Source: a virus (lineage: Duplodnaviria > Heunggongvirae > Uroviricota > Caudoviricetes). Taken from it: a DNA stretch of 64,000 bases. Below the pieces are notes generated by a model. That model was not told the origin of the DNA, ran no database searches, and saw nothing but the letters and a program-made list of their open reading frames with translations. The stretch is taken from positions 1 to 64,000 of the IMG/VR virus record IMGVR_UViG_3300037852_000247. One strand, 5' to 3'. Shown in pieces: positions 31,267 through 55,100 of the stretch (positions are counted from its first letter, which is position 1; each line of letters opens with the position of its first letter). The position numbers and the translations under genes were made by a program.

Positions 31267-33042
31267 ATGCCCGCACCCGGCACCGGCGGCGTCCAGACAT
31301 CGCTGGTCGGCACCGTGCAAGGCATGATGGCGCGCGCGCGAGCCGCGTTCCGCGGCAAGCCGACGCCGGGCGCAACGATCCAAAGTCCAGGCGTCAACCC
31401 GCCGGACCTGACGCAGTTTAGCGATACCTTTGAGCCGTCGGGTGGTCTGTTCGCTCCCGGCTATCCGCTGCCACCGGTCGAGCCTGAACGGCTGCGCGCG
31501 CTCGACTATCCCGTCGGGTACAACTACATCTACACGCCGCGCTCATACGAACCCATTGGGTTCGCCGAATTGCGCGCGCTGGCGCAAAACCACGACATCA
31601 CCCGGCTCTGCATTGAGACACGCAAGGATCAGATCGAGGCCCTCCAGTGGTCGATCAAACCGCGGGATGAGCGCAACCCGAAAGCTGGCGCCGAGAAGCG
31701 GTCCGACGCGCTGACCGAGTTTTGGATGTGCCCCGACGGCAACAACGACTTTGCGACTTGGCTCCGGATTTTACTCGAAGACGTGCTCGTACTTGATGCG
31801 GCAACACTGGAGGTCCGCAAAAATCGCGGAGGCGACATCATTGCGCTGGACATTATTGACGGCAGCACGATCAAGGTGCTGATCGACACCACTGGGCGCC
31901 GGCCCGCTCCTCCCGCACCTGCCTTTGAGCAGATCATCCATGGCCGGCCTTGGGTGCTCACCGAGGATGGCCGCGTCAGCACCAATGCCAAAGCAGACCG
32001 TTCGATCTTCGCCGACCAGCTTATTTACGTGCCGCGCAATCCGCGGCCACACAAGTTGTACGGCTATTCTCCTGTCGAGCAGATCATGCTCACGATCAAT
32101 ATCGGTATTCGCAGGCAGATTATGCAGTTGCAACATTTCACGGAGGGCAATCTACCGCCGGGAATGGCTACGGGCGCAAAAGATTGGAGCCCGGATCAAA
32201 CTGCGAAATACCAGGAGTGGTTTGATTCATATTACGCCGGCAATACCGGCAACCGGACGAAAATGATCTGGGGGCCGGCCGAGGCGAAATACATTCCATT
32301 CAAGGAAGCGCCGTACAAAGACGATTTCGACGAGTGGCTGACGCGCGTCGTGTGTTACGCCTTTTCATTGCCGCCATCCTGGGCTGTAAAACAGATGAAC
32401 CGCGCAACCGCGGGTACAGCGCAAGAAGTTGCGATCGAAGAAGGACTTGCCCCAATAATGGGGTACGTCAAGCGGATGATCGACAACGTCATCCAGCGCC
32501 GCATGGGCAACCCCGACCTCGAGTTCTCCTGGAAAGACGAGCGACCGGTCGACCCGGCAGACCAGGCGAAAATCTTCGACATTTACATCAAGAACGGGAC
32601 TTACGTGCAGGACGAGGTGCGCGACAAGCTGGGCGATGACCCGCTCCCCGATGGCGTCGGTGCCCAGCCGATGATTATCACCGCGAGCGGTCCGGTCCTG
32701 CTGAAAAATCTCGAGGCGCTGGGCGAGTTGAGTTTGAACCCACCCCAGCCGACGCTAACGCCGAGCTCGGGCCCGGCGGCCGGCAAAGGTGGGCCCGAGG
32801 GCAAGGCGGCGCCTCGAAAGGGCGCTGCCAAACCCTCCGGAAAAACCCCGGCCAAGAGCAAAGCGAATGGAAAGACCGCCGCCAGCCTCGGCCAGCCTAT
32901 CGGACGTGATCAAGGTTACGCGCCAGCCGACCCTCCACGCGGCGCAGAAGCGGTTCGCCTCGCGATTGCACGCCTTGCTACGCGACCTGGCGCACCAGAC
33001 GGCGCGGGCACTCGGCCCGCAGATCAGGCTCCACGGCCGTAG
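31267..33042 (+). CDS. Phage portal protein
   Basis: 591 aa, directly downstream of the terminase. Conserved portal-like core (YNYIYTPRSYEPIGFAELRALAQNHDITRLCIETRKDQI...). Low-complexity K/A/P-rich C-terminus. Confidence 0.7.
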   Translation: MPAPGTGGVQTSLVGTVQGMMARARAAFRGKPTPGATIQSPGVNPPDLTQFSDTFEPSGGLFAPGYPLPPVEPERLRALDYPVGYNYIYTPRSYEPIGFAELRALAQNHDITRLCIETRKDQIEALQWSIKPRDERNPKAGAEKRSDALTEFWMCPDGNNDFATWLRILLEDVLVLDAATLEVRKNRGGDIIALDIIDGSTIKVLIDTTGRRPAPPAPAFEQIIHGRPWVLTEDGRVSTNAKADRSIFADQLIYVPRNPRPHKLYGYSPVEQIMLTINIGIRRQIMQLQHFTEGNLPPGMATGAKDWSPDQTAKYQEWFDSYYAGNTGNRTKMIWGPAEAKYIPFKEAPYKDDFDEWLTRVVCYAFSLPPSWAVKQMNRATAGTAQEVAIEEGLAPIMGYVKRMIDNVIQRRMGNPDLEFSWKDERPVDPADQAKIFDIYIKNGTYVQDEVRDKLGDDPLPDGVGAQPMIITASGPVLLKNLEALGELSLNPPQPTLTPSSGPAAGKGGPEGKAAPRKGAAKPSGKTPAKSKANGKTAASLGQPIGRDQGYAPADPPRGAEAVRLAIARLATRPGAPDGAGTRPADQAPRP

Positions 33043-33907
33043 CGCGACCAAGACCGCGTCACTTTTTGCCGCCTCATTTGAGGACGCAAAAAGTGACGCG
33101 CTCGGGAAGGCCGACGACGATCCTGTCCACCCTTTACCAGGTACTTTCCCAAGTACCGACGATGACGACGAGGATGACGACGACGAGGACGACGACGCGG
33201 TCGCTCAGCAGCGGCGGCACGATGGCTTCCTCGCGACGGCCGCGCTGATCCTTGCCGGCGCCCCGATCGGCGACTGGCAGACCCTACGCACGCCGGCGAC
33301 CGAGGAGCTCGAAGAGACTTACGCCGGCAGCGCTCGCGGGACCCTCAGGCTGCTCGGGTTCGACGGGCCGGACACGACGGTCAACCAGGCGCGCGAGCAG
33401 TTCAGCTTGCCGCCGGTCGACGAGCCCGCCGACGACCAGCTGGCCTCGGCGATCGGCGACCAAATGGACCGCGCGGCCGCGGCCTGGGCGCGCGAGAACG
33501 CCGGCGAGCTCGTCGGCCAGCTCGAGGAGTCGACCCGCGGCATGCTTGCCGAGGACGTCGCCCAGGCCATCGAAGAGGGCTGGACCGATGCCCAGCTTGC
33601 CGAACACCTTGCGGACAACTACGCCTTCAGCGAGACTCGGGCCGAGCGCATCGCACAAAACGAGCTCGCCGTCGCCAAGCGGGCGGGCGAGCGGATCGCG
33701 ATCGGCGAAAGCAATGTCGCCACCGGCTACGTCTGGGTAACCGCGGGCGATGACCAGGTCGAGGATGATTGTCTGGAAAACGAGGACGCCAGCCCGATCG
33801 ATATCGACGAAGAGTTCCCGAATGGGGACGATCCACATGTTGGGTGTAGATGCTCGATCGCGCCCTGGTTAGAGCCGCTCGACGACAGTGAGGATGAAGA
33901 CGAATGA
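32789..33907 (+). CDS. Head morphogenesis protein (Mu gpF / SPP1 gp7 family)
   Basis: C-terminal signature ERIAQNELAVAKRAGERIAIGESNVATGYVWVTAGDDQVEDDCLENEDASPIDIDEEFPNGDDPHVGCRCSI. The start is uncertain. Overlaps the portal ORF by ~250 nt in another frame. Confidence 0.7.
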   Translation: MGPRARRRLERALPNPPEKPRPRAKRMERPPPASASLSDVIKVTRQPTLHAAQKRFASRLHALLRDLAHQTARALGPQIRLHGRSATKTASLFAASFEDAKSDALGKADDDPVHPLPGTFPSTDDDDEDDDDEDDDAVAQQRRHDGFLATAALILAGAPIGDWQTLRTPATEELEETYAGSARGTLRLLGFDGPDTTVNQAREQFSLPPVDEPADDQLASAIGDQMDRAAAAWARENAGELVGQLEESTRGMLAEDVAQAIEEGWTDAQLAEHLADNYAFSETRAERIAQNELAVAKRAGERIAIGESNVATGYVWVTAGDDQVEDDCLENEDASPIDIDEEFPNGDDPHVGCRCSIAPWLEPLDDSEDEDE

Positions 33908-35284: not shown

Positions 35285-36319
35285 ATGTCGGTCTTGAAAT
35301 CGCAGTTAAGAATTTATGGGAGCGCCTCGATGCCCGACATCGATGGTACCACGACAGGCGGCGCTTTTACTCCATCCAATAAGGTCGTGTTCGCCGACGT
35401 CACCCCGACCGGGTTCGTCGATTACGTGTCGGAGAACTCAGGCGATACGGCGGTCGTTCTGACCGTCTCAGGGCGCGATTCCACTGGCGTCATTCAGACC
35501 GAGGCCAAGACCCTCACCGGCACTACGAAAGTGGCCGGCGCGCAATCGTTCGAGCGATTACTGAAGGTCGTCGCGTCCGGCACCGGCGCGGCGGGAACGA
35601 CCGCAGTATTGTCCCACACCGCAGTGATCGCCGCGCACACAGCCGTAACCGGATCGGCGGCGACAGCCACCCTGGACGCGACGGTGACCCTGCAATCTGG
35701 CGACGGTGCGGCGGTTGCGGCGGGCCAAATCTTTCGCCCGACCAACAACCTGCCGGCAGGCGTCAATTTCCAGCTGCGCGAAATCATCAGCATCTCCGGC
35801 GATGTCGTGTCGGTCAGCGCGGATTGGGCGATCGTCCCGACCGTGGCGACGACCTATGACATCTACCAGGGCATGCTGCTCGACAAATTGCCGAACCTGA
35901 TCACCCAGGTGCGCCGGCCGTTCTACAATGCGGCCGCGGACGTGAGCGGCGGATCGACCCGGAGCTTCCACGAGAAGGTCTTTGCCGTCGACAACAACAC
36001 GGTCACAGCACTCACCGTCGCGAACATCATCAAGCAGGTCGACCCGTCATCAGGCACATTGAATTTCGCGCTGACGAACGTGCTCAACGACCTCAGCACG
36101 ATCGCCACGCGGCAGACCGTCCCGTCCGTCGCAATCACGGCGTTCTCGTCCGGCGCTGCGCCGCAGACCCTTCCCGTTCCGTCACCGCAGAACCTGCCTT
36201 CTGGCGGGGCACCAAACGCCGCCGGCGCACAGGGTATTTGGTTGCAGCTCGTGCTGACTGCGGGGCTCGCGCCGGCGAAAACCTCGTTTACAATGCGCGT
36301 GAGCGGCCAGACCACGTAA
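35285..36319 (+). CDS. Putative major capsid/structural protein
   Basis: 344 aa, Thr/Ala/Val-rich. Assigned only from its position after the portal, gpF and scaffold-like genes. No motif recognised. Confidence 0.3.
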   Translation: MSVLKSQLRIYGSASMPDIDGTTTGGAFTPSNKVVFADVTPTGFVDYVSENSGDTAVVLTVSGRDSTGVIQTEAKTLTGTTKVAGAQSFERLLKVVASGTGAAGTTAVLSHTAVIAAHTAVTGSAATATLDATVTLQSGDGAAVAAGQIFRPTNNLPAGVNFQLREIISISGDVVSVSADWAIVPTVATTYDIYQGMLLDKLPNLITQVRRPFYNAAADVSGGSTRSFHEKVFAVDNNTVTALTVANIIKQVDPSSGTLNFALTNVLNDLSTIATRQTVPSVAITAFSSGAAPQTLPVPSPQNLPSGGAPNAAGAQGIWLQLVLTAGLAPAKTSFTMRVSGQTT

Positions 36320-36340: not shown

Positions 36341-37384
36341 GTGACGCAAGTCATCATCACCTCCGGCACAACGTGGCCCGGTGGGGTTCCGACCGATTGG
36401 AACGACGCGAATAACACAATAGAAGCTATCGGTGGCGGCGGAGCTGGAGCTGGAGGCAATGTCGGCGGGGGTGGGGGTGGTGGCGAATACCGTAAGCTAA
36501 CCAATGTCACAGCAGCCACTCTGGGCGGCCTTGGCGCTGCAGTGGCTCTTACGATAGGCTCCGGAGGAACATGCGCGAGCGGCACGACAAATGGTACTGC
36601 CGGCGGGAATACGACACTCCACTCGACATTGCTAATCGCAGTCGGCGGTGGCGGCGGCAATGCTGGAACCGGCGGAGCAGGCGGGTCGGGCGGTACTGGC
36701 ACTGTAGGACATAACGGCGGGACTGGCGGCAATAACGTTTCCGGGGCAGAGGCCGGCGGTGGCGGTGCCGGCGGACCGAATGGCGTGGGTGGCGCCGGCG
36801 CCACAGGTCTTTCCGGCTCTGAGCAAGGCGGCGGCGGCGGCGGCGCGGCGGATGGCGGCGCGGCCGGTAATAACGGAGCTGCGCAAGCAGGCGGTACTGG
36901 CGGAACGGCCTTCGATAGCACGGCCGGCGGTACGGGTGGAGCTGCGGGGTCTAACGGCGGCGCGACGGACGGCGGCCCGGGCGGCACTGGTGCTCATGGC
37001 TCCGGAGGCGGTGGCGGCGGGGGCGCCACCGACTCAGGCTCAGGCATCCTATCCGGCCCAGGCGGCCCCGGAGGTACTGGCGTAAATTGGACAACGGCCG
37101 GAGCTGGCGGCGGCGGTGGCGCCGGTGGCGTAATCATCAACGGCGCGGCCAACGTAGCTGCGAAAACCGGCGGAGCCGGCGGTCTTTATGGCGGCGGCGG
37201 CGGTGCCGGCGCCTATGGCGGAGCCGTTCAAGCCCCGGGCGGCGCCGGTGGGCAGGGCATCATCGTCATCACCTATACGCCCGCGACCGGCGGCACAGTC
37301 TTTTCGGATAACGGCGGCAGGTTTGATCTGTCGCTGACGGTGCGCAGCGGCAATGAGCGGCAGCGCACGGTGTGGTGGAGTTGA
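36341..37384 (+). CDS. Glycine-rich protein
   Basis: 347 aa, more than 40% Gly in GGxGG repeats. Ends LTVRSGNERQRTVWWS, which is encoded by the conserved 3' motif. Confidence 0.5.
   Translation: MTQVIITSGTTWPGGVPTDWNDANNTIEAIGGGGAGAGGNVGGGGGGGEYRKLTNVTAATLGGLGAAVALTIGSGGTCASGTTNGTAGGNTTLHSTLLIAVGGGGGNAGTGGAGGSGGTGTVGHNGGTGGNNVSGAEAGGGGAGGPNGVGGAGATGLSGSEQGGGGGGAADGGAAGNNGAAQAGGTGGTAFDSTAGGTGGAAGSNGGATDGGPGGTGAHGSGGGGGGGATDSGSGILSGPGGPGGTGVNWTTAGAGGGGGAGGVIINGAANVAAKTGGAGGLYGGGGGAGAYGGAVQAPGGAGGQGIIVITYTPATGGTVFSDNGGRFDLSLTVRSGNERQRTVWWS
37340..37376 (+). repeat. Conserved gene-end motif, copy 1 (GTGCGCAGCGGCAATGAGCGGCAGCGCACGGTGTGG)
   Basis: Also at 38033-38068 (GTGCGCAGCGGCAATGAGCGGCGGCGCACGATGTGG) and, in its 22-nt core, at 40147-40174. 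GTGCGC...GCGCAC forms a stem. Confidence 0.7.
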
Positions 37385-38146
37385 GTGGCCCAAGTTTGGT
37401 CCGCTACGCACATCAACTCACATTTGAGTGGGGGCGGTACCATCACGGTCACGATGGGCGCGACGAATACGAGTTGTGCCGGTTTTGGATCCGAAGGGGT
37501 TACCGTAGGTAAATTCTACTGGGAAACGTCCGTTACGTCGTCTTCATTTGCCAATAACTGCATTCAGGGCATAGGCAACACGGGATCATCGGCTGCTGAC
37601 TTCCAATACATTGGTGTAGGACCAGATACTTGTGGAGTGTTCGGTACTGGTACAGCAAGTGACTTCTATTATAATGCCGGTCTCGTATGGGCATCTAGTA
37701 CATTTGTAGTGGTGTCAGGCGACAGAATAGGACACGCTCTTGATTTGGTGAACGGTCTATATTGGATTGAGGATATTACTTTGGCAAGCGGGTGGTATGG
37801 GTCGTCTGGGAGCGTTACCGGCAATCCAGCGACCCAAAACAACGGATTCGTTCTGTTATCAGGAATTACGGCTAATCCGGTCGTTCCAGCTCTTTCTTTA
37901 AAGAACAGTGGCGATGTCGGAAATGGGTATTTTCTCCCAGCCTTATGGCTGGGGACGCCGCCCAGCGGGTTTGTAGCGCTTTCCCACCCGGTCTTTTTGG
38001 ATTCTGGCGTCGGATGCGATCAGTCGTTGGCCGTGCGCAGCGGCAATGAGCGGCGGCGCACGATGTGGACAGCGTCATTTCTAACAGATGAATCTACCGG
38101 CAATGTTCTGACCGATGAATCTACCGGCAACCGATTGACGCAATAA
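37385..38146 (+). CDS. Hypothetical structural protein (low-GC)
   Basis: 253 aa. Ends LAVRSGNERRRTMWTASFLTDESTGNVLTDESTGNRLTQ, with the same 3' motif and a terminal 8-aa tandem repeat. Confidence 0.45.
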   Translation: MAQVWSATHINSHLSGGGTITVTMGATNTSCAGFGSEGVTVGKFYWETSVTSSSFANNCIQGIGNTGSSAADFQYIGVGPDTCGVFGTGTASDFYYNAGLVWASSTFVVVSGDRIGHALDLVNGLYWIEDITLASGWYGSSGSVTGNPATQNNGFVLLSGITANPVVPALSLKNSGDVGNGYFLPALWLGTPPSGFVALSHPVFLDSGVGCDQSLAVRSGNERRRTMWTASFLTDESTGNVLTDESTGNRLTQ

Positions 38147-40149
38147 TGCGCTTATATGTCATCACATTATCCCTAATGGTCGCATGGGCATCGGCTGCCA
38201 AGGCTGATGTAAGCTTCCCTGCTTATCTGACTGGGAAAACCGCTGCATCAGTCCCATTGACCAATCAATGCATCCCGATCGTCAATGCAGCCGGCACAGC
38301 AACGACTAAGCTTTGTTCGAACTATGCCACTGCAATTGGCGCGGCAGCTCTTAGTGCTAATTCTCCGGTTTATGTCACAACCGCTGGCGCGATCGGCGAC
38401 GGTTCTTCTCACCCGGCATGCACGGCGCTCGGGCTGGCTAATCTCACGGCGCTGCAAGCCTATTCTAAGAATGGCTATTCCTACTCGTTTGCTACCTCTT
38501 GCACGAACGAGTTGGACTGGCTCGCAGCGCAGGCGGTCATCAACGCGGGCAAGGATGTCTTCTATCCTGCCGGAACCTATCTTAATGATCAACAGATTGT
38601 TCTGCCTAACGCCAGCGAGGGGCCCGGCACAGGCGCTATCAGTATATTTGGTGTCTCCAGCTCCACATCAGTCTTGTCGTGGCCGACCGATCTTGGAACC
38701 GCAAAAGCCGGGATAGTTTGCGGCACTCCAGCGACAAGTATATGCGCCGGGACAATCCAACACTTAGGTATGACGGGTCCGGCAGCGGCGGGATATTATG
38801 CAACCCACCTGGGCAGCCAAGTCGCCAGCATGGACGGTTTCCTCTGGGGAGGACGCCGGCAGGTCAACGATCTGTTCATTACCGGGTTCAACAAGTGCAT
38901 CAGCATGCGCGGCGACCAAACAGTGCTCACCGCTCTCCATACAGTCAATTGTACTTATGGGATGTATCTCGACGATCCAAACTCTACCAACTTCGGCAAT
39001 ATCCACATCGTAAAGGCAATCCTGGAGCAAAGCTCGCGCGCCGCAATTGGCATGAGCCACGCCGCCCACCTTGATTACTACACGTTTGAAAGTTTGTGCG
39101 CCTGCGTTGCCCCGTTCGGCATTTTGAAGGAAATGGGCGGCGCGACAGACCATCCTCACATTACCCACGGCACCGTGTTCATAAACTCTCAATTCGAGAA
39201 CCTGGGGAATGGCGTGATCGGGGATGATGTCGCCGGAGCCACACGCTACGGAGTTGACTATGAGAGCACATGGATAGAGACCGAGTTCCTATGGAACGCG
39301 ACGTATCGATGGTCGGCGCTCAACAAAGATGGAATATTCAATCTCTACCAGTCATTTCTGATGAAATTTAATGGTTTTGCCGAACCGGGTCTCTGGGTTC
39401 CAGGCACGACAGGCATATTCAACATTCAATTCGTCACGCAAGCCAAGATGGTTGGCGACTGCACTACCCTGCGGGCAAATGCCGCCACGGCGAGCTTGCC
39501 GTTTTCGGCCTTCACTCAATCTAGCGGCCAATGGGTCTGCGAGCAGCCTGGACAAGCGGCTCTTGATGTTGGGCAGAGTTTCAGTACGCAATACGCTTTC
39601 GGAAACAGCGGCTTACCAGGATACAGCGGCTCCTATTGGGTTAGTAGCCTCGCCGCCGCCTCCTCCGCGAGCTTGCAATTCACGGGATTACCTACGGCGT
39701 ATGCTAGGCTGGCTCTAAATTGCACGGGGTTAGTGCCCAGCATTGCCGGTTCTGGGATCAGTGTCAATGTCGGCGAGGGTGGGGGGCCGACTTGGGAGAC
39801 AACCGCCCATTACACGGTGCTTGAAACACATTATGGCACAACGAGTACCGGATCTGCGCTAGGTTCCAAATCGCTTGTGGCGACCGATGCTTTTAACGGT
39901 TGGGGAGGCAATCTATCTACAACGGTGCCCTTAGCTTTCCGCATGTATATAGATAATGTGGCGTCATCCAGTATAAATAAGTGGTTGCATTGGAACCTAG
40001 CGGTCGGGGACAATGACGGCTCGGCGTGGCACGCTGATGGTAAATCGTTCTGGAACAACGACACCAATCCGATTACTGGAATAGAGCTGGTACCATCAGC
40101 AGGAACCATCGCATCCGGGAAATGCGCGTTGAGCGCGATCGAGGATTGA
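38146..40149 (+). CDS. Secreted right-handed beta-helix (pectate-lyase-like) protein; depolymerase/tailspike candidate
   Basis: Signal peptide MRLYVITLSLMVAWASAAKA. YVTTAGAIGDGSSHPACTAL resembles the Pectate_lyase_3 N-terminal motif. 667 aa. Confidence 0.55.
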   Translation: MRLYVITLSLMVAWASAAKADVSFPAYLTGKTAASVPLTNQCIPIVNAAGTATTKLCSNYATAIGAAALSANSPVYVTTAGAIGDGSSHPACTALGLANLTALQAYSKNGYSYSFATSCTNELDWLAAQAVINAGKDVFYPAGTYLNDQQIVLPNASEGPGTGAISIFGVSSSTSVLSWPTDLGTAKAGIVCGTPATSICAGTIQHLGMTGPAAAGYYATHLGSQVASMDGFLWGGRRQVNDLFITGFNKCISMRGDQTVLTALHTVNCTYGMYLDDPNSTNFGNIHIVKAILEQSSRAAIGMSHAAHLDYYTFESLCACVAPFGILKEMGGATDHPHITHGTVFINSQFENLGNGVIGDDVAGATRYGVDYESTWIETEFLWNATYRWSALNKDGIFNLYQSFLMKFNGFAEPGLWVPGTTGIFNIQFVTQAKMVGDCTTLRANAATASLPFSAFTQSSGQWVCEQPGQAALDVGQSFSTQYAFGNSGLPGYSGSYWVSSLAAASSASLQFTGLPTAYARLALNCTGLVPSIAGSGISVNVGEGGGPTWETTAHYTVLETHYGTTSTGSALGSKSLVATDAFNGWGGNLSTTVPLAFRMYIDNVASSSINKWLHWNLAVGDNDGSAWHADGKSFWNNDTNPITGIELVPSAGTIASGKCALSAIED

Positions 40150-40180
40150 TGAGCGGCGGCGCAACAGTGTGGGGTCCCTG

Positions 40181-40462
40181 ATGGCAGACTCGACCGTACA
40201 GGTCCCGCCGATCCCAATAGGCGGAACAAACCAGGTCATGGACACGAGCGCGCTAACGCGCGCCGACGGCAATAACACCGTTGTCAATCGAGGACGCTAC
40301 GTTCTCGGCGACCCCGTAAACCCGACATCATTCGCGGCCGTCACGCCCACAGGCGAGGTCGCTGTAATTACGAGATTGAGAAATATCGAGGCGCAGTTGG
40401 CACGCGTTGCGCGGCTGTTGGAAATACTCGCCGACACCGAAGTGCCTCTAGGTTCGGCTTGA
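40181..40462 (+). CDS. Hypothetical small structural protein
   Basis: ATG at 40181, directly after copy 3 of the gene-end motif. Confidence 0.4.
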   Translation: MADSTVQVPPIPIGGTNQVMDTSALTRADGNNTVVNRGRYVLGDPVNPTSFAAVTPTGEVAVITRLRNIEAQLARVARLLEILADTEVPLGSA

Positions 40463-41171: not shown

Positions 41172-43718
41172 GTGCTGGTCTTCTGGGAGTTCTTCCTAAA
41201 ACCGGTCTCGCAAGGAGAGATCTCTATTGATTTCGGCACTCACGTAGCTGTAAGCGCCGATTCAGTATCACCGATCGCTCCCGGACTGGAGGCGTTTGAG
41301 CCAGATACGCCGGTTGAATTTGGATCGTCCGTCCAGCCGGACGGGGCGATAGCCGATGAGGTGTCTCTCGTCGTGCGGAATGACCCCGTTGAACCGATCG
41401 AATGGACGGGGGGAAGTCCATCATTAACTCTCGACTCAATAATACCGGTCGAAAATGCGCTGACTATGCGGTCCGACGGCGGCACCCCTGAAGACGCCCG
41501 CGCAACGTCGAGCCGCGATCAAATAACTCCGGCCGAATTCGGCCTATCGGTCTCGCGAGATCATGCGATACCGGATGAGGCGGGTTTAACGACACGCTCG
41601 GACCCGGCAATCCCGGACGAAGCGGCTGGCACAGCGCAAAGCTCCGGCATTCTCCCGATCGACGCCGGTCTATCGGCTCGTAATGATGCGGGGGCACCGG
41701 ACGAAGCTGCCGCGGCGAGACAGAACGATGCCGCAACCCCCGAAGAGAGCGCGGAGACACCCCGCAGCGACCCGAACACTCCGGTGGACTGGCGCGGCTC
41801 GCCGTTCGCCGACAGCCGCATCCTGGAGGACTGGGCCAGCGCTACCGTTGTCGAGAACAGCCCGATTCCTGAGGAATTCGGCCTTTCCGCCCGGAACGAC
41901 GGCGGCGCTGCCGATGAAACGGGCGGAGGCCAGCGCTCGGACCCGGCGATTCCAGATGAATCCGGGGGCGCGGCCCGTAGCGATGGCGCGATACCAATCG
42001 AGGAGGCTCTGTCGCTCAGGAACGACAGTATCGTCCCGGTGGAGTTCGTCGCCTCTGCTGCCTCCGTTACCGGCGATAGCAAGGTCCCGATCGAAATGGG
42101 GCTTGCGGCGCGCTCGGATCCGAGCAGCCCAATCGACGCGGGCTTATCGGTGCGCAACGACGGAGCGACGCCAGCTGAGTTGGCCGCCGCTCGACAAAGC
42201 GATGCCACAACCCCGGAAGAGAGCGCGGAGACGCCCCGCAGCGACCCGAATACTCCGGTGGAATGGCGGGGTTCACCGACCAGTGATGGCCGCATTCCGC
42301 TGGAGGCTGGCCTTTCGTTCCTGACCAATGCGGCTTCGCCGATCGAAGCCGGTCTTTCGGTCCGGTCGGATCCGGCGACGCCCATCGAGCCTGGTGAGGG
42401 CGTACAGAACGGGCCCGCGATACCGGCAGAGTGGCGCGGTTCGCCGACTGCCGACAGCGGTGTTCCCATCGAGGCTGGTCTCGCGGTTAGAAGCGACGCC
42501 GTCGATCCTGACGAAGCTGGTCTCGCGGTTCGGGATGATGCCGGCGACCCGATCGAATTTGCTGCGGTGCAGCGAAGCGATGGCCGGCCGCCGATCGAGT
42601 GGCAGGGCCAGGTGCCGGTCACTCTCGACAGCAACATGCCGCTCGATCAGGCGGGCAATCCCGCGCAGGGCGGCGGCATCCCCGATGAATGGTCCGGCGC
42701 GCGGACCGGCGACCAGGGCGAGCCGGTCGAAGTTGCGGCAACCAGGCTAAACGATGCGCGCGATCCGGCGGATGTTGCAGCCGGCGCGCGGACCGATGGC
42801 CCTTCCCCGGTCGAGATCGCGGAGACGGTCGCTGATAACGGGATCATTCCGGAATATAACCTTGGCAGCATAACCGCCAGCGGGGTTTCACCGGACGAAG
42901 CCGGGCTCAGCGTTCGCGCCGATGGCAGCGGAGCCGACGAGATCGCGCTAAGCGCTCGTTCGGAAGGCGCCGAGCCGGCCGCGATCGCCGAGACGGTGCC
43001 GGGCGACGGAAAGTCACCGGTCGAGTGGCAGGGCCAAGTCCCGATCACCCTCGACTCCAACATCCCGCTCGACCACCTGGAAACCCTCTCCGGAGGCCCT
43101 GCAAGCCCCATCGAGATGGGGATGCGCCAAACCTCGGACGGATCGGAGAACGCAGACAGAGGCCTCTCCGCGCGCGGCGACGGGGCATCCCAGACCGAAG
43201 CCGCGGTGACGGTCGCGGGCGACGGCAAACAACCGATCGCGATAGGCGCCGTCATCTCCGCGGATGGCGGCACACGGATCGAGCTCGCCATCGCGGTGGT
43301 CAGCTCCGCGGGCGGGCCGATCGAACATCTTTCCGCCGTTGCCGGCGATGCGAGTCTTCCGATCAACTTCGTGCTGGTCGTTTCGAGTGACGATAGCCCT
43401 CCGGAGGAATGGGCCGTTTATCTCTTCGGAGACGACGCGGTCCAGATCGAGCATTTGCTCGCGACCGGCGCGATGGTATTTTCTGATTCCACGGTGCAGA
43501 TCGAGCATCTGCTCCAGACCCCATCGAACGTCTTTTCCGACTCGGCTATTCCGCTCGACTTCACGGAGTCGTTTTTTACTTTCGTGGTCTCGCGCACCGG
43601 AAGAGAGAGCAGCGGCCGCCTGCTCGTGCCCCAACGAAATCTTCGTATGTTATCTGGCGAGCCGCGCGAGCGGGTTCTTAAAGCATTGAGACGGCTGCGT
43701 CTCATCACGCCTCGTTAG
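41172..43718 (+). CDS. Large protein of ~60 degenerate 11-aa repeats
   Basis: 848 aa. The repeat unit is like SPIEAGLSVRSD / IPDEAGLAVRDD, periodically interrupted by TPVEWRGSP. The ~120-aa C-terminal domain is non-repetitive. Confidence 0.5.
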   Translation: MLVFWEFFLKPVSQGEISIDFGTHVAVSADSVSPIAPGLEAFEPDTPVEFGSSVQPDGAIADEVSLVVRNDPVEPIEWTGGSPSLTLDSIIPVENALTMRSDGGTPEDARATSSRDQITPAEFGLSVSRDHAIPDEAGLTTRSDPAIPDEAAGTAQSSGILPIDAGLSARNDAGAPDEAAAARQNDAATPEESAETPRSDPNTPVDWRGSPFADSRILEDWASATVVENSPIPEEFGLSARNDGGAADETGGGQRSDPAIPDESGGAARSDGAIPIEEALSLRNDSIVPVEFVASAASVTGDSKVPIEMGLAARSDPSSPIDAGLSVRNDGATPAELAAARQSDATTPEESAETPRSDPNTPVEWRGSPTSDGRIPLEAGLSFLTNAASPIEAGLSVRSDPATPIEPGEGVQNGPAIPAEWRGSPTADSGVPIEAGLAVRSDAVDPDEAGLAVRDDAGDPIEFAAVQRSDGRPPIEWQGQVPVTLDSNMPLDQAGNPAQGGGIPDEWSGARTGDQGEPVEVAATRLNDARDPADVAAGARTDGPSPVEIAETVADNGIIPEYNLGSITASGVSPDEAGLSVRADGSGADEIALSARSEGAEPAAIAETVPGDGKSPVEWQGQVPITLDSNIPLDHLETLSGGPASPIEMGMRQTSDGSENADRGLSARGDGASQTEAAVTVAGDGKQPIAIGAVISADGGTRIELAIAVVSSAGGPIEHLSAVAGDASLPINFVLVVSSDDSPPEEWAVYLFGDDAVQIEHLLATGAMVFSDSTVQIEHLLQTPSNVFSDSAIPLDFTESFFTFVVSRTGRESSGRLLVPQRNLRMLSGEPRERVLKALRRLRLITPR

Positions 43719-46018: not shown

Positions 46019-46489
46019 ATGCGCGGGCTACAATACACCGGCAACGGTAAACTCGCCTATCATCCTCCACTCGACGAGGCGGAGGACACGGAGAGATTCT
46101 GCCCGCACTGCTATGGCTCGCTCGACAAGACGCGTGCGCCGACGATCTTGCCGCCGCCATGGTTCGACCATCAGAGGCGCGAAGTCATTATCGGCGACGA
46201 GCGGCGCAAGCTCGACCCTACGATGTTCCGGCTGTTGGTCATCTTCTGGGAGCGGCCCGACCGGCTGTTGTCGCACAGCATCCTAATGATTCTGCTCTAC
46301 CCGAACCCCGACACAGCCCCGCTCACTAAGTCCTTGGAAATCAATTTGTGTCGGCTGCGCAAGGCGCTGCTCGGCACGCCTTACTCCATCCTAAATCGCC
46401 ACGGCGAAGGGTACATTTTCACTGCCAAACCGCCGAACGCGCGCGAGATCGCCCGTAGAGCGAAGCGCGAGTTATCAGGGCATATTTAG
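46019..46489 (+). CDS. OmpR/PhoB-type winged-helix DNA-binding protein (ToxR/CadC-like, no receiver)
   Basis: LDPTMFRLLVIFWERPDRLLSHSILMILLYPN...SLEINLCRLRKAL...GEGYIF matches the trans_reg_C winged-helix pattern. N-terminal C-x-x-C-x15-C. Confidence 0.5.
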   Translation: MRGLQYTGNGKLAYHPPLDEAEDTERFCPHCYGSLDKTRAPTILPPPWFDHQRREVIIGDERRKLDPTMFRLLVIFWERPDRLLSHSILMILLYPNPDTAPLTKSLEINLCRLRKALLGTPYSILNRHGEGYIFTAKPPNAREIARRAKRELSGHI

Positions 46490-49123: not shown

Positions 49124-52100
49124 ATGGTCAAATCAGGCTTTGCGGCCCTTTGCCTCGTCCTCCTCTTCCTCATTGCGGGGATAGACGGGAAAGCGCTCGC
49201 CCAAGGCGGGTTCACGCCCGGCCCGGGATTGACTTTGACATCGCCGATCCTGACAACGCCGACCATAAACGCCGGCGTCATGAATGGGACGTTCACCGGC
49301 GCGCCTTATTTTTCAGGCGGTCCGACGATCATCGGCGGGACTCTCATCAGCCCCACGATATCCGGCGCGACCATCAGCGGCACATTCTCCATCGCCACGT
49401 TAGGCGTTGCCGGCAACGCCTCGTTCGGCGCAGGAATAAAGTCAACCGCGCTCGCCAACGCTCCGATGCTGGGGACCGACGTGTCGGGAAATTTCCGGGC
49501 AATAACGCTCGGAACGGGCCTTTCGTTCGGCGGCGACGGCGTCACGCTCAATGTTTCATCCCCGCCCCCTTCGGTTGTCTGGCCTGCGCCGAACAGCCTC
49601 ATCATCTCGAACGGCACGAACTCACCCTCTGGGCTGACGCCCGTCAATAATTCTCTGCTCTACGCGAGCGGCAATGGCTGGCAGGGTCTCGCAGCCGCAG
49701 CGAGCTCCGTGCCCTGTTGGAATGCCTCCAGCATGCTGACGGCATGCTCACCGACCACGATGCAGACGACCCTGGGATACCTGACGGGCAACCAAACGAT
49801 CACCCTCGGCGGCGATTTCTCGGGCTCAGGCGCAACCTCGATTACAGGGACGGTCCTCAAGCTCAACGGCGTATTTGCCCCGGCAACGCCTGCGACGAAC
49901 ACGATTCCTTATGTCTCTTCGCCGAACCAATTCACCTACGGCAACGCCGCAACTATCCTGGGAGTCCTGGGCGTCCCGTTCTCGGTTCCCAATGGCGGCT
50001 CCGGCCTGGCGACTCTAACCGCGGGCGCGATCTACAAAGGCGCAGGTACGGCGAACATCGTCGCCTCTGGCCTATCGGATAGTGGTTCGGTAATTAGCAC
50101 ATCCGAGCCGTTCGATCTCACCAATCAGAGCCAAGTGATCGAGATCGCCAATGCGAGTTCGGTTGGCACCACGAACGGACTGCTGGCGAAGCTGACGGGT
50201 GCACCGTCTACGGCGCTCACGCTCCTGACGAGCGATACCGATGGAGCCCTCGGGGTTGTTCTCAGCGGGGGCGGGACGATCGGCAACGCACTGATCGTCA
50301 TCGGCGGTCAGGCGAATTGCTCGTTCGACGGGTCGACCACGGCTGATAATTGGGTCATACCAAGTTCCACCGCCGCCGGTAAATGTCACGATACCGGATC
50401 GGCCACCAGACCGGGCGGCTCGCAGGTGATCGGGCGCGTACTCACGACGAACGCGGGAGGCCCCGGCTCCTATGCGATGATCGTCAACCCCAGTTTTACG
50501 AATACGGCAGGCAGTCCTCCGACTTGGCCCGCGACCGGCAGCATTGTCGTTTCGAATACCACCAACACGCCAGCAGGCCTCGCGCCGGTCAACAACGATC
50601 TGGTCTATGGGACGGGCGGGGCGTGGGCGGCTCTCGCATCGGCAGCCAACTCGGTACTCTGCACGAACGGATCAAGTGTTCCGTCGCTATGCTCGGCGGC
50701 AACCACGCTGTCGCTCTTGGGCGCGCCGTGGTCGGTTTCCAACGGCGGATGGGGCCTCACCACTTTAATTTCCGGGGCGATCTATAGAGGCAACGGAACC
50801 AGCCCCCCTGCGGTCTCGGGCCTATCGGACAATGGCACTCTCGTCAGCACCAGCGAACCCTTCGACCTGACCACCAAGAGCGCCGCCTTTGAGGTCGCGA
50901 ATGCATCAAGCGGCGGCACGACCGTTGGGTTGATTGCAAAGATCTCCGCCGCCCCGTCCACAGCCCTGACGGTGCTCACCAGCGATACCGATGGCGCAGC
51001 TGGCATCGTCATCGGCGGCGGCGGTACTACTGGCAATGCGCAAATCGCTTTCCGTGGCCGGGCATTCTGCACGTTCGATGGCGCAACGACGGCCAGCCAT
51101 TACGTCACGATCAGCGGCAGCGTGGCCGGAAATTGCCATGACGGCGGAGCCGCTAGGCCGGCAGGCGCGCAATCGATCGGTCAGGTTCTAACGACTAACG
51201 CCTCGGGCGGTTCGTATGAGGTTGCCATCAGCCTCGGTTTCACGAATACGGCAGGCAGTCCTCCGACCTGGCCGGCGACCGGCGACATCGTTGTTTCGAA
51301 CAGCACCAACACCCCGGCAGGACTGGCGCCGGTGGCCAGCTCGGTGCCCTGCTGGAATGCCTCCAGCGTACTGTCGGCGTGTACATCGGCGGCGGCGCAG
51401 ACGATCCTGGGATACCTGACGGGCAACCAGACGATCACCCTAGGCGGCGATGCGGCAGGCTCCGGGACCACCTCGATCACGGTGTCGAATCTCAAGCTGA
51501 ATGGTGTTGCTTACCCAGCCTCGCCGGCGACCAATACGGTCCCGGTCATTACCACCTCAAACCAAGTCACGTATGAGACTGGCTCCGGGCTTGCGGCATT
51601 GACCGGCTTCGGCACGATGCTGACGCAGAACGCCAGCGCCGTCGCCATCACCGGCGGATCGATTATCGGGACGACGATCAACGGGCCCAGCAACACAATA
51701 ACCAACATCGGCAATGCGTCGTTGACGAATTCGAGCATGACCCTAGCCGGCCATAGCGTTTCCTTGGGCGGCACGCAGGCGTTTGCGATCGGCGATCTCT
51801 CGAACATCGGGGCAACAACGATTGTCGGCAATAACACCGGCATCGCCGGCGTCCCGCTTGCGCTGTCGACCGCGCAAGTGTCGGCGTTGCTCGGCCTCGG
51901 GACCATGGCCACGCAGAATGCCAGCGCCGTCGCTATCACCGGCGGGTCTATCATCGGCACAACGATCAATGGCCCGAGCAACACGATAACGAACATCGCC
52001 AACGCGTCGCTGACGAACTCCAGCATGACCCTAGCCGGGCATAGCGTCTCTTTGGGGGGCACGCAGGCGTTCGCGATTGGCGACCTGTCTACCATCGGGG

Positions 52101-55100
52101 CATCGACCATCGTCGGCAACAATACGGGCATAGCCGGTGTCCCGCTTGCGCTGTCGACCGCGCAAGTGTCGGCGTTGCTCGGCCTCGGCACCATGGCCAC
52201 GCAGAACGCCAGCGCCGTCGCTATCAGCGGCGGAACGGTCACGGGCACGACAATCAACGGCTCCAGCAACACGATAAGCAACATTGCAAATGCGTCGCTG
52301 ACGAACTCCAGCATGACCCTCGCTGGTCACAGCGTCTCTTTGGGGAGCACGCAGGCGTTTGCCATCGGCGACCTGTCTACCATCGGTGCGACGACCATCG
52401 TCGGAAACAATACCGGCGTCGCCGGCGTGCCATTGGCCCTGACAACCACGCAAATCAAGACGATGCTGGGCGAGGGCACCCTGGCCTCGCAAAACGCCAA
52501 TGCCCTGAATGTGACGGGCGTCACCGCGCTTACGGGTCTGCCGACATGCTCGGCAGCATCTGACGCGTGCCCGAAATCTTACATCGACGGCGCCGTTGTC
52601 GGTTCCGTTCTGCACCCCCAGGTGGCGGCTGCCACTCCTGCCGCGGTTCTACCGAACACGCCCGTCGCATCGGGGACCGGCCCTGGCAAAACCCTGACAT
52701 CAGCCACCAACACTGCCCTGGTTGTCGACGGATATACTGTCCTTCTCAACGACCGGGTGCTCGTTAAAGATCAAGCTGCCCCAGCCGATAACGGCATTTA
52801 CGCACAAACGACTCTTGGTGTTGGAGGCTCGGTCAAATGGGTGCTGACCCGCGCGACTGATTTTGACACAGCGGTGGCCGGCGAAGTTGCGCTCGGGGCT
52901 TATGTTTTCGTCGCCAATGGCACCGTGAACGTCGGCACGCAGTGGCAACTTGGCGCGCCGACGCCGGCCTCCATCACCGTCGACACGACCGCGTTGACCT
53001 TCAACAAATTAAATGCGTCATCGACACTGACCGCCGACGGGACGACCATCCAAAACATCGGCGGCACGATATCCGTGCTTCAGAATGGCGTGCTGAATGC
53101 GGTCACGGCAACCCCAAACTCGCTAATAGCGCGCGGCGCGTCGACCTGGGCAGGCGTCGCTCCCGTCAACAACGCGGTGCTCGTCACTAGTGGTGCTGGC
53201 GTTCCGAGCGAATCGACCGTCCTGCCGTCGGGCCTGACGATCCCGGGATATCTTACCGCCAATCAGACGATCACGCTGAGTGGAGCGACTACAGGCAGCG
53301 GTACGACCGCCATCACGACAGCTTTGGCCTCGGTCGCCGATGCGACATTGCTGGCGAACGTCTCCGGCGGTTCTGCGGCTCCGTCGGCAAATACTTTGAC
53401 TGCGATCATCGATCACGACATCGGCTCAACGGCAAATTCCCTGCTACAACGCGGCGCGTCGACCTGGGGATTAATGCCGGTTGTCAACAATGCCGTGGTC
53501 GTAACTAGTGGCACCGGCGTGGCGAGCGAATCCACGACGCTGCCTAGCGGTCTGACGATACCGGGATATCTAACCGGCAATCAGTCGATCACCGTAAGCG
53601 GTGCTGTTACCGGCAGCGGCACGACCGCCATTACGACCGCCCTAGCCTCGGTTGCCGACGCCACGCTGCTATCAAACATCTCCGGCGGTTCCGCGGCATC
53701 GTCGGCGAACACGCTGACCGCTGTCATCGACCACGACATCACAGCAACCGCAAATTCTCTATTGGCGCGCGGCGCCTCGACTTGGGCGGGCGTGGCGCCG
53801 GTCAACAATGCCGTACTCAGCACTAACGGGACGGGCGTCCCTAGCGAATCGACCACCTTGCCGTCAGGCCTGACCATCCCAGGGTATCTGACGGGCAATC
53901 AGACCATCACTATCAGCGGCGATTCCACAGGTTCCGGGGCAACCTCGATCACCCTCGCGAACACAAAAGTCAATGGGGTAGCCTATCCGGCCGCGCCTGC
54001 GACGAACACGATCCCTTACATCTCTTCGGCGAACCAGGTCACATACGGCAATGCAGCAACTATTCTGAGCCTGCTTGGAACCCCGTGGTCGGTTCCTAAT
54101 GGCGGAACGGGCCTTACGACCCTGACCTCCGGGGCAGTCTATAAGGGCAATGGCACCAGCGCCCCGACCGTCTCCGGCCTATCGGACAACGGTACTCTCG
54201 TCAGCACCAATGAGCCGCTCGATCTCACATCGAAAAGCGCTGCCATTGAGGTCCTGAATGCCGCGACCGGCGGCACGACGGCTGGCTTGATCGCGAAGTT
54301 GTCAGGCGCACCTTCGACGGCCCTCACGACACTCACGACCGATACCGATGGCGCGGTGGGTATCGTGATCGGCGGCGGCGGTACTACGGGCAATGCTCAG
54401 ATCGCTGTTGAGGGTCAAGCCCCATGCACGTTCGACGGCGGCACGACTGCCGGTCATTTTGTCTTGATCAGCGGCTCGGTCCCCGGGAATTGCCATGACG
54501 GCGGAGCTAGCCGGCCAGCCGGTGTGCAAACCATCGGACAAGTGCTGTCCACTAATGGTATAGGCGGGTCCTACCAAGTTCAGATCAATCTCGGGTTTAC
54601 GAACAGCGCGAATATCGGAGGAACGGTCAGCTCTGCGGGAACCTCCACGGTCAATAATATCCCGTTCTGGACGGGCCAAGCCACTCTGAGCAACACCGGC
54701 GTTCCCTTCGGCACCGTCGGGAACAATACCCTTGTTGAAACGGGCGGCGGCGGGACCATAGCAAATGCCCTGATCAGCGCACTGCCGCTCGCCAACTTGG
54801 CAACAATATCCGATGCGACGCTGCTCTCGAACGTTTCTGGCGCTTTGGCCGTGCCGTCGGCGAACACGCTGACCGCGATTATCGATCACGATATCAGCGC
54901 GACAGTGGGTGCGATCCCGGTGCGCGGAGCCTCGACCTGGGGCGGACTCAATCCAGTCGCCACCGTAGGATTTGTCTTAACAAACAATGGCGTAGGAGTC
55001 GCCCCGACATACCAAGCGCTACCCGCGCCGGTCATAAGTGGCATGACCATTGGCCAGGTGCCCGTAGCCGCAACCGCCACCACCATAACATCAAGCATCG

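What the first reader, a model, noticed from the sequence alone, without database searches (positions are those of the whole stretch)
37340..40174. A 22-36-nt motif conserved at the 3' ends of three consecutive structural genes
(A)ATGAGCGGC(G/A)GCGCA(C/A)(G/C)(G/A)TGTGG occurs three times. It ends ORF 36341..37384, where it is coding (SGNERQRTVWW). It ends ORF 37385..38146, where it is coding (SGNERRRTMWT). It also lies immediately after the stop of 38146..40149, where it is non-coding. The motif therefore sits in different reading contexts, so the conserved unit is the DNA or RNA.

The first two copies also carry a flanking GTGCGC...GCGCAC stem. Candidates are a recombination or cassette-boundary site for swapping fibre or receptor-binding modules, a 3' processing or retroregulator element, or a recoding signal.
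Basis: seen in the sequence. Interest (0 to 1): 0.7.

Follow-up and report, generated by a model that had tools for sequence, protein, structure and literature searches.

The report
Shared C-terminal peptide on swappable phage proteins
The repeated "DNA motif" encodes a conserved peptide of about 28 residues that ends many otherwise unrelated phage surface-type proteins, and the third, non-coding copy is a decayed leftover of such a gene end, so this is protein modularity plus a recombination scar rather than a DNA or RNA signal.

Summary
All three copies exist, but the description needs correcting. Copies 1 and 2 are the core of a 78-nt, 81%-identical repeat read in the same frame. It encodes VFSDxGGxxDxSLxVRSGNERxRTxW. 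Copy 1 ends its ORF. Copy 2 lies 25 codons before its stop. Copy 3 is a 15-nt exact match, then a 1-nt insertion, then TGTGG.

A profile search of 1.84 billion proteins found 15 further true carriers of this peptide. Their bodies are unrelated (LamG lectin-like, beta-helix-like, p3-like, others). In all but one the peptide sits within 4 residues of the C-terminus.

Nine DNA copies vary mainly at third codon positions. The GTGCGC/GCGCAC stem shows no covariation and no significant folding energy. There is no terminator and no Rfam hit.

In four related metagenome loci a tail-bearing gene ends 0-4 nt before a homolog of the small gene at 40181. Copy 3 sits exactly there. With one A removed it reads DERRRTVWGP, with its stop overlapping that gene's ATG. 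Homologs of the 667-aa gene upstream never carry the tail. Copy 3 is therefore a relic left when that gene displaced an older tail-bearing gene.

The peptide's function is inferred: a common C-terminal assembly or docking handle. Its first half resembles the 14-residue repeat of the nearby 848-aa protein.

The parts
35285..36319 (+). p1, a conserved 344-aa protein. It is the constant left neighbour of the variable gene block. It may be the major capsid protein, judging by position only.
   Evidence: Its C-terminus (...GIWLQLVLTAGLAPAKTSFTMRVSGQTT*) recurs immediately upstream of the variable genes in L001 and L028. It has no Pfam, PHROG or PDB match.
36341..37384 (+). p2, a glycine-rich 347-aa protein that carries the C-terminal tail (copy 1).
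   Evidence: ORF list. The tail HMM scores 63 bits, E=1.5e-18.
37298..37381 (+). Tail-coding segment, copy 1: VFSDNGGRFDLSLTVRSGNERQRTVWWS, followed directly by the stop and then the GTG start of p3.
   Evidence: (D9).
37385..38146 (+). p3, a 253-aa protein. It has weak PHROG matches to virion structural proteins. It carries the tail (copy 2) followed by an atypical extension.
   Evidence: Homologs P0002 and P0003 end right after the tail.
37991..38068 (+). Tail-coding segment, copy 2: VFLDSGVGCDQSLAVRSGNERRRTMW.
38069..38143 (+). A 25-codon extension after the tail, containing a 27-nt tandem duplication. It is the probable left junction of the incoming p4 cassette.
   Evidence: It is absent from homologs P0002 and P0003 and from the other family members except P0013. 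Tandem repeat.
38146..40149 (+). p4, a 667-aa beta-helix-like protein with a signal-peptide-like N-terminus. It has no tail and is interpreted as the displacing gene.
   Evidence: Homologs P0005-P0007 lack the tail and occur in unrelated phage contexts. G+C is low, 0.51-0.58.
40149..40181 (+). Copy 3, a non-coding relic of a tail gene's last 11 codons. With one A of 40163/40164 removed it reads (D)ERRRTVWGP*. Its TGA (40179-40181) overlaps the p5 ATG.
   Evidence: The position matches tail-gene ends in L007, L013, L025 and L027.
40181..40462 (+). p5, a conserved 93-aa protein (MADSTVQVPPIP...IEAQLARVARLLEILAD). It is the constant right neighbour of the last tail-bearing gene.
   Evidence: Homologs directly follow tail genes in L007, L013, L025/L026 and L027.
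41172..43718 (+). p7, an 848-aa protein made of about 50 tandem 14-residue repeats (P-I-E-x-G-L-x-x-R-S-D-x-x-x). The repeat unit resembles the first half of the tail.
   Evidence: third-best window hit of the tail HMM, E=1.3e-3; 0 of 1000 shuffles reach its score; hhalign P=4e-4.

Best explanation
The motif is the DNA that encodes a conserved C-terminal peptide of about 28 residues: VFSDsGGxx[DE]xSLxxRS[GA]NE[RQ][RQ]RT[VI]W(W)S-stop. This peptide terminates a family of otherwise unrelated phage proteins.

In this genome two neighbouring genes (p2, p3) carry it.

The third copy is a frame-broken leftover of the last 11 codons of a former tail-bearing gene. It was left just upstream of the conserved gene p5 when the tail-less p4 gene, plus a short upstream piece now fused to p3 as a 25-aa extension, displaced that gene's body by illegitimate recombination.

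Shown:
- the repeat is under coding constraint;
- the peptide defines a family and sits at the C-terminus;
- its gene end keeps a fixed position next to p5;
- there is no conserved RNA structure.

Inferred:
- The peptide is a common assembly handle. It lets many different glycan-binding-type bodies use one attachment or assembly partner.
- The candidate partners are the translationally coupled downstream protein p5 and the 14-residue-repeat protein p7, whose repeat unit the tail mimics.
- Its conserved coding sequence, together with p5, also supplies the homology that lets gene bodies be exchanged.
For: Coding repeat:
- The repeat is 78 nt, in frame, 81% identical.
- Homologs of p3 end with the same peptide. 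One differs by synonymous changes (AAC GAA for AAT GAG).
- In nine DNA copies the variable columns are 12, 13 and 21 at codon positions 1, 2 and 3. In the core they are 1, 2 and 6.

Family:
- The profile search gave 18 proteins at E<=1e-3, of which 16 are true (sequences). These are the window's own p3 plus 15 others.
- In 14 of the 15 others the tail lies within 4 residues of the C-terminus.
- Two bodies hit Pfam Laminin_G_3.
- The tail is in no Pfam family, no PDB chain and no deposited phage.

Relic:
- Tail genes end 0-4 nt before p5 homologs in L007 and L013, L025 and L027.
- Copy 3 is in the same place. After removal of one A it reads ERRRTVWGP* with a TGATG overlap like that in L027.
- There is no similarity upstream of the 15-mer.
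- p4 homologs lack the tail.
- No shuffle of 150 gave a match as good as copy 3.
- L007 shows a longer relic-like 84-aa tail ORF behind a tail-less 343-aa ORF.

Handle idea:
- The tail HMM hits the p7 repeats 10 times. p7 ranks third in the window, and 0 of 1000 shuffles reach its score. hhalign gives P=4e-4.
- Three family members carry one extra 14-residue unit.
Against: - No experiment or structure supports any binding partner.
- AlphaFold2 of p3 failed (pLDDT 31).
- AlphaFold2 of the tail alone gave no secondary structure (pLDDT 64).
- The tail-p7 similarity is weak per repeat (6 bits or less) and hhalign probability is only 35%.
- p5 has no match to known chaperone or adaptor families.
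- Some core codons (CGC AGC ... CGC ACG ... TGG) are invariant even at synonymous sites in all nine copies. Some extra DNA-level constraint or codon bias is not excluded.
- The profile-based DNA score of copy 3 alone is not significant.
- The single-base differences that break copy 3 could be assembly errors. Even if corrected, p4 would gain only the last 10 tail residues.
Confidence: 0.72

Rival explanations
1. The conserved unit is a DNA recombination site. It would be a dedicated cassette-boundary sequence at which fibre or receptor-binding modules are exchanged, like attC sites, shufflon sites or the Neisseria pilin 3' repeat.
For: - Gene content between p1 and p5 differs in every related locus, while the tail-coding 3' end and p5 stay constant.
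- Copy 3 lies at a junction.
- Several core codons never vary at synonymous sites.
- p2 and the p3 homolog in L001 also share their first four codons.
Against: - Variation across copies is mainly at wobble positions, as expected for a peptide constraint.
- Breakpoints are not fixed: the relic is 33 nt here but about 250 nt in L007, and the left junction here lies after the tail.
- The motif occurs only 3 times in 64 kb, always within this gene block.
- The peptide is conserved at the protein level in sequences whose DNA has diverged.
Confidence: 0.15
2. The motif is an RNA element: a 3' stem-loop acting as terminator, processing site or retroregulator for the structural genes.
For: A 6-10 bp GC-rich hairpin can be drawn in copies 1 and 2 and in L001.
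Against: - Folding z-scores are -1.1, -1.3 and -0.3 for the copies with a stem, and +0.8 to +1.7 for copy 3, L007 and L013.
- There are no compensatory pairs, and 7 of 10 pairs are broken in some copies.
- No U-tract terminator is predicted at any copy.
- There is no Rfam match.
- Copy 3 lacks the 5' arm entirely.
Confidence: 0.03
3. Copy 3 is a recoding signal. Ribosomes would shift frame at the end of p4 to append the tail, or to fuse p4 to p5.
For: The 5' part of copy 3 (GAT GAG CGG CGG CGC) is in the p5 frame and +1 relative to p4. That frame is open from 40136.
Against: - There is no slippery heptamer or RF2-type CUU-UGA context at GAT-TGA (by inspection; no frameshift-site scan was run).
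- A second shift would be needed to read TVW.
- Only the last 10 of 28 tail residues would be gained, because nothing upstream resembles the tail.
- No p4 homolog has a tail.
- p5 homologs start at the ATG.
Confidence: 0.03
4. Copy 3 is a chance match of a GC-rich 15-mer. Only two real copies would then exist.
For: The nhmmer profile score of copy 3 is 5.3 bits, E=1.3. That is comparable to unrelated hits at 46133 and 18477. GCGGCGGCG is low-complexity sequence in a genome of about 60% G+C.
Against: - No shuffle of 150 contains a match with 2 or fewer errors.
- It is an exact 15/15 match to copy 2 followed by TGTGG.
- It lies precisely where tail genes end relative to p5 in four other loci. 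It has a frame-compatible stop overlapping the p5 start.
Confidence: 0.05

Closest known systems
Modular phage receptor-binding proteins with a conserved anchor module and exchangeable specificity module (for example Klebsiella and E. coli phage tailspikes; PMC8262889, PMC10408124)
   Same: A short conserved segment is shared by proteins whose remaining parts are unrelated and lectin- or depolymerase-like. The genes are mosaics exchanged by recombination at the conserved segment.
   Different: In the known systems the conserved anchor is N-terminal and is a folded domain. Here the constant part is a 28-residue peptide at the extreme C-terminus, with no match in Pfam, PHROGs or the PDB. Attachment to the virion has not been shown.
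[quoted passage not shown]
   Same: The polarity is the same, with variable N-terminal display domains and a conserved C-terminal attachment part. The genes here lie just after the gene at the usual major-capsid position.
   Different: There is no sequence similarity. Hoc's binding part is a domain, not a 28-residue peptide. That p1 is the capsid protein is only a positional guess.
T4 fibritin foldon, a C-terminal trimerisation peptide of about 27 residues (from my own knowledge)
   Same: The length and C-terminal position are similar. The pattern is strand, tight turn (SGNE), strand. One carrier is glycine-rich and fibre-like.
   Different: There is no sequence similarity. AlphaFold2 of the isolated tail gave no hairpin. 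Oligomeric state is unknown.
Tail-fibre / tail-fibre-assembly chaperone pairs such as T4 gp37-gp38, lambda Stf-Tfa and Mu S-U (from my own knowledge)
   Same: A small gene (p5) immediately follows the gene and is often translationally coupled to it. The C-terminus of the upstream protein would be the recognised part.
   Different: In the known pairs the fibre C-terminus and the chaperone vary together. Here both are constant while the N-terminal body varies. p5 matches no chaperone family.
Orphan cassettes of polymorphic toxin loci (CdiA-CT and Rhs tips), which retain a fragment of the conserved boundary coding sequence (from my own knowledge)
   Same: Displaced or incoming modules leave short fragments of the conserved coding boundary beside the variable part. 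Copy 3 and the L007 84-aa ORF look like this.
   Different: Here the conserved boundary is at the 3' end of the gene, and the system is a phage structural module rather than a toxin locus.

Membership tests
Modular phage RBPs with a shared anchor module | One conserved segment is shared by proteins with unrelated remaining parts. | tested here: met
   16 true hits in the profile search, plus p2, P0002/P0003 and L013, carry unrelated bodies and share the tail.
Modular phage RBPs with a shared anchor module | The conserved anchor is the N-terminal domain. | tested here: not met
   In 14 of the 15 other carriers the tail is within 4 residues of the C-terminus. N-termini differ between members.
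Modular phage RBPs with a shared anchor module | The variable parts are receptor-binding or depolymerase folds. | tested here: inconclusive
   P0020 and P0027 hit Laminin_G_3. p3 has weak PHROG matches to virion structural proteins. Most bodies have no family match. The p3 model failed.
Modular phage RBPs with a shared anchor module | The anchor binds a virion component. | not testable with these tools
   This needs proteomics, cryo-EM or multimer modelling.
Intrinsic terminator or RNA retroregulator | A stable GC-rich hairpin followed by a U-tract. | tested here: not met
   No terminator-like site is found at any copy. Folding z-scores range from -1.3 to +1.7.
Conserved structured RNA element | Base pairs are maintained by compensatory change across homologs. 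| tested here: not met
   There are 0 pairs with changes on both sides, and 7 of 10 pairs depart only by broken cells. There is no Rfam match.
Dedicated DNA recombination site (attC, shufflon or pilin 3'-repeat type) | The nucleotide sequence is conserved independently of coding, and breakpoints are fixed. | tested here: not met
   Variation is at wobble positions. Relic lengths differ, 33 nt here against about 250 nt in L007.
Dedicated DNA recombination site (attC, shufflon or pilin 3'-repeat type) | An associated site-specific recombinase is present. | not tested
   The flanking ORFs in the structural block have no recombinase hits among those scanned. The whole window was not screened for this.
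Programmed ribosomal frameshift signal | A slippery sequence at the shift site, and a conserved trans-frame product. | tested here: not met
   No slippery motif is visible at 40140-40150 by inspection; no dedicated scan was run. p4 homologs lack any tail. Two shifts would be required.
Foldon-like C-terminal trimerisation peptide | A beta-hairpin fold that forms trimers. | tested here: inconclusive
   The monomer AlphaFold2 model on a 16-sequence alignment has pLDDT 64 and no secondary structure. Oligomers cannot be modelled here.
Tail-fibre assembly chaperone pair | A small gene lies directly downstream of the fibre gene. | tested here: met
   p5 homologs start 0-4 nt after the tail-gene stop in L007, L013, L025 and L027.
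Tail-fibre assembly chaperone pair | The downstream protein belongs to a known chaperone family. | tested here: not met
   p5 has no Pfam or PHROG match.

The most novel reading that the evidence does not exclude
The tail may be a universal plug. It would be one p7-type 14-residue repeat unit plus a basic-aromatic cap (NERRRTVWW). Through it, many different lectin-like, beta-helix and glycine-rich modules would dock onto the repeat array of about 50 units in p7, or be loaded by p5.

This would give the phage a cellulosome-like, exchangeable, multivalent display of host-binding modules. The conserved 3' coding end would double as the homology handle for swapping them.
Probability: 0.12. Interest if true: 0.75.

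Novelty: new variant of a known kind. Interest (0 to 1): 0.4.

Why it matters
It replaces a proposed nucleic-acid signal with a protein-level explanation. It also defines an undescribed C-terminal peptide family in an uncultivated soil-phage lineage.

If the peptide is an attachment or assembly handle, it reverses the usual polarity of phage host-recognition proteins, where the constant anchor is N-terminal. It would also be a very small, portable tag for hanging arbitrary domains on a virion.

The relic copy and the L007 mini-ORF give a worked example of how gene bodies in such a block are replaced. They show how replacement scars can mimic regulatory motifs.

Tried and rejected
Searches that found nothing:
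- DNA and protein searches of 50,697 deposited phages with the region, p1, p3, p4, p7 and the tail consensus all returned nothing. Only the portal has relatives there: Brevundimonas siphoviruses at 43% identity.
- IMG/VR scans with p3, the degenerate motif and a p5 alignment found nothing.
- The genome-collection scan with the degenerate motif returned only chance matches.
- The word-indexed protein search with the tail alignment returned nothing. The exhaustive representative search did find the family.

Structure prediction:
- The AlphaFold2 model of p3 was unusable (pLDDT 31).
- The model of the tail was uninformative.

Ideas tested and dropped:
- p4 carries a degenerate tail upstream of copy 3. 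No significant similarity was found (p = 0.13-1.0 against shuffles).
- The p4 family ends with the tail. It does not.
- The hairpin is a conserved RNA structure. It is not.
- Tails within one genome are homogenised by gene conversion. The copy 1-copy 2 synonymous distance (0.26) is only slightly below the between-genome values (0.29-0.55), so there is no clear signal.

Family and structure look-ups:
- PDB sequence searches for p1, p6, p7 and the tail profile were empty or insignificant.
- Pfam and PHROGs gave almost no annotation for the block.


Full report
**1. Observation.**

The three copies are real.
- Copy 1 (37353-37375) closes ORF 36341..37384.
- Copy 2 (38046-38068) lies inside ORF 37385..38146, but 25 codons before its stop, not at its end.
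- Copy 3 (40149-40172) begins on the last base of the stop of ORF 38146..40149.
  - It shares an exact 15-mer with copy 2.

The copy 1 / copy 2 similarity is much longer than reported: 78 nt at 81% identity (D9).

The motif is not a dispersed repeat.
- At 3 or fewer errors the window holds only these three sites.
- None of 150 dinucleotide shuffles gave a match as good as copy 3.
- A profile built from nine diverse copies scores copy 3 at only 5.3 bits, E=1.3. Its significance therefore depends on within-genome identity and position.

**2. The repeat is a coding sequence for a C-terminal peptide.**

Copies 1 and 2 are in the same frame. They encode VFSDNGGRFDLSLTVRSGNERQRTVW and VFLDSGVGCDQSLAVRSGNERRRTMW.

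The two detectable homologs of the 253-aa protein p3 both end with this peptide. In the one whose DNA could be read (L001), the differences from the window include synonymous AAC and GAA for AAT and GAG.

An exhaustive profile search of 1.84 billion representative proteins returned 18 hits at E<=1e-3.
- 16 are true: the window's own p3 plus 15 others.
- P0021 and P0025 are repeat-driven false positives.
- The bodies are unrelated to each other. They include p3-like proteins, two Laminin_G_3 proteins, a 754-aa beta-helix-like protein and others.
- In 14 of the 15 the peptide lies within 4 residues of the C-terminus. The exception is P0013, which has an extension.

Nine independent DNA copies are now in hand: two from the window plus L001, L007, L013, L024, L025, L027 and L028.
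- Variable columns number 12, 13 and 21 at codon positions 1, 2 and 3.
- In the 11-codon core they number 1, 2 and 6.
- This is the signature of selection on the peptide.

**3. The RNA and DNA-signal readings fail their tests.**
- The hairpin's energy is unremarkable where it exists. It is absent in copy 3, L007 and L013.
- On the nine-sequence alignment no pair shows a compensatory change, and 7 of 10 pairs are simply broken in some copies.
- No terminator-like site coincides with any copy.
- Rfam finds nothing.

**4. Copy 3 is a relic.**

In L007 and L013, L025/L026 and L027, a tail-bearing gene ends 0-4 nt before a homolog of the small gene p5.
- p5 in the window is 40181..40462. Its protein reads MADSTVQVPPIP...IEAQLARVARLLEILAD.
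- L027 has the same TGATG stop/start overlap seen in the window.

Copy 3 occupies exactly that position.
- With one A of 40163/40164 removed it reads GAT GAG CGG CGG CGC ACA GTG TGG GGT CCC TGA, that is DERRRTVWGP*.
- This ending is within family variation (WWGNP*, WSPG*).
- Nothing upstream of the 15-mer resembles the first 18 tail residues.

The 667-aa protein p4 that now precedes it belongs to a family that never carries the tail. That family occurs in unrelated phage contexts.

The p3-p4 stretch has lower G+C (0.47-0.58) than its flanks (0.60-0.73).

p3 has lost the normal stop that follows the tail in its homologs. It instead runs on for 25 residues into p4's start. That extension contains a 27-nt tandem duplication.

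The simplest history is that p4, with a short upstream piece, replaced the body of a third tail-bearing gene.
- The left junction falls at the end of p3's tail.
- The right junction falls 33 nt from the old gene's stop.

L007 shows what looks like an earlier stage of the same process. An 84-aa ORF consisting of little more than the tail sits behind a tail-less 343-aa ORF and in front of p5.

**5. Context.**

The genes lie in a phage structural block downstream of the portal and a MuF-like protein.

Between the conserved p1 and p5, gene content differs in every locus examined.
- Window: p2, p3, p4.
- L001: a p3 homolog followed by a glycosyltransferase-like gene.
- L028: a DUF4082 protein, a tail protein, and then another gene.
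- L025: two unknown genes followed by a LamG-tail protein.

This is a hypervariable block whose members usually, but not always, carry the tail.

**6. How it probably works (inferred).**

A constant extreme-C-terminal peptide on interchangeable glycan-binding-type bodies points to a shared handle for assembly or attachment. So does its position next to a constant, often translationally coupled small gene.

Two candidate partners are encoded nearby.

p5 follows the last tail gene in every locus where the downstream sequence could be read, except L001 and L028.

p7 (41172..43718) consists of about 50 strict 14-residue repeats.
- The tail HMM aligns its positions 4-17 (DsggxfdxSLxxRS) to ten p7 repeats, for example DSGVPIEAGLAVRS.
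- p7 is the third-best hit in the six-frame translation of the window, and no residue shuffle of 1000 reaches its score.
- Profile-profile comparison gives P=4e-4, but only 35% probability.
- Three family members carry exactly one additional 14-residue unit.
- VFSDS occurs twice near p7's C-terminus.

The tail thus looks like one p7-type repeat followed by a basic-aromatic cap.

Whether it docks on p7, is recognised by p5, or nucleates oligomerisation like a foldon cannot be decided here. The two structure predictions were uninformative.

**7. Comparison with known systems.**

The logic matches modular phage receptor-binding proteins with a conserved anchor and exchangeable specificity parts (PMC8262889, PMC10408124). 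The polarity is reversed, however, and the constant part is a short peptide.

[quoted passage not shown] It shares no sequence.

The relic resembles the boundary fragments kept by orphan toxin cassettes (from my own knowledge).

The peptide is absent from Pfam, the PDB, PHROGs hits, 50,697 deposited phages and IMG/VR.

**8. Verdict.**

The inference that the conserved unit is DNA or RNA is not supported.

The cassette-boundary idea survives only in the weak sense that a conserved coding end marks the edge of swappable genes and has left a scar.

The finding is a new variant of a known kind, modular phage surface proteins, and is of moderate interest. The more novel docking-array reading is possible but unproven.

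Noticed in passing
window 41172-43718: The 848-aa protein p7 is made of about 50 strict 14-residue tandem repeats (P-[IVD]-[ED]-x-G-L-x-x-R-[SN]-D-x-x-x). It has no match in Pfam, PHROGs, the PDB or deposited phages. Its repeat unit resembles the first half of the tail, and VFSDS occurs twice in a 54-nt tandem repeat at 43438-43545.
   Followed up: partly
window 31267-33907: The portal ORF (31267..33042) and the next ORF (32789..33907) overlap by 254 nt in different frames. They match consecutive parts of one PHROG profile (phrog_2662, positions 37-441 and 526-714 of 717). This looks like a split or frameshifted portal-MuF fusion, as annotated in some Arthrobacter phages.
   Followed up: no
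window 38079-38139: A 27-nt tandem duplication (TDESTGNVL / TDESTGNRL) lies inside the atypical 25-residue extension of p3. In L021 the small ORF upstream of a p4 homolog also ends in a 9-residue tandem repeat (MNPAGTAVL / MNPNGTAVV).
   Followed up: partly
window 36341-36352 and L001 95-106: The glycine-rich p2 starts GTG ACG CAA GTC (MTQV). This is almost identical to the start of the p3 homolog in L001, GTG ACT CAA GTC (MTQV), although the rest of the two proteins is unrelated. Gene bodies may be swapped between a conserved 5' start and the 3' tail.
   Followed up: no
window 38146-38230; L028 320-400: p4 and its homologs P0005-P0007 have hydrophobic, signal-peptide-like N-termini. So does the tail-less DUF4082 protein in the same block of L028. 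The tail-less genes of this block may be secreted proteins rather than virion parts. No signal-peptide predictor was available.
   Followed up: no
window 37400-40150: G+C dips to 0.47-0.58 across p3 and p4, against 0.60-0.73 in the flanking genes. This is consistent with recently acquired or fast-evolving genes.
   Followed up: partly
L007 319-573 (minus strand): An 84-aa ORF (P0012) consists of about 55 residues plus a complete tail. It sits between a tail-less 343-aa beta-helix-like ORF and a p5 homolog. It looks like a longer relic of the same kind of gene replacement.
   Followed up: partly
window 49124-56023: A 2299-aa ORF has no PHROG match. It was not examined further.
   Followed up: no
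proteins P0014, P0018, P0024: Three tail variants contain an internal insertion of exactly 14 residues, which duplicates the repeat-like first half of the tail.
   Followed up: partly
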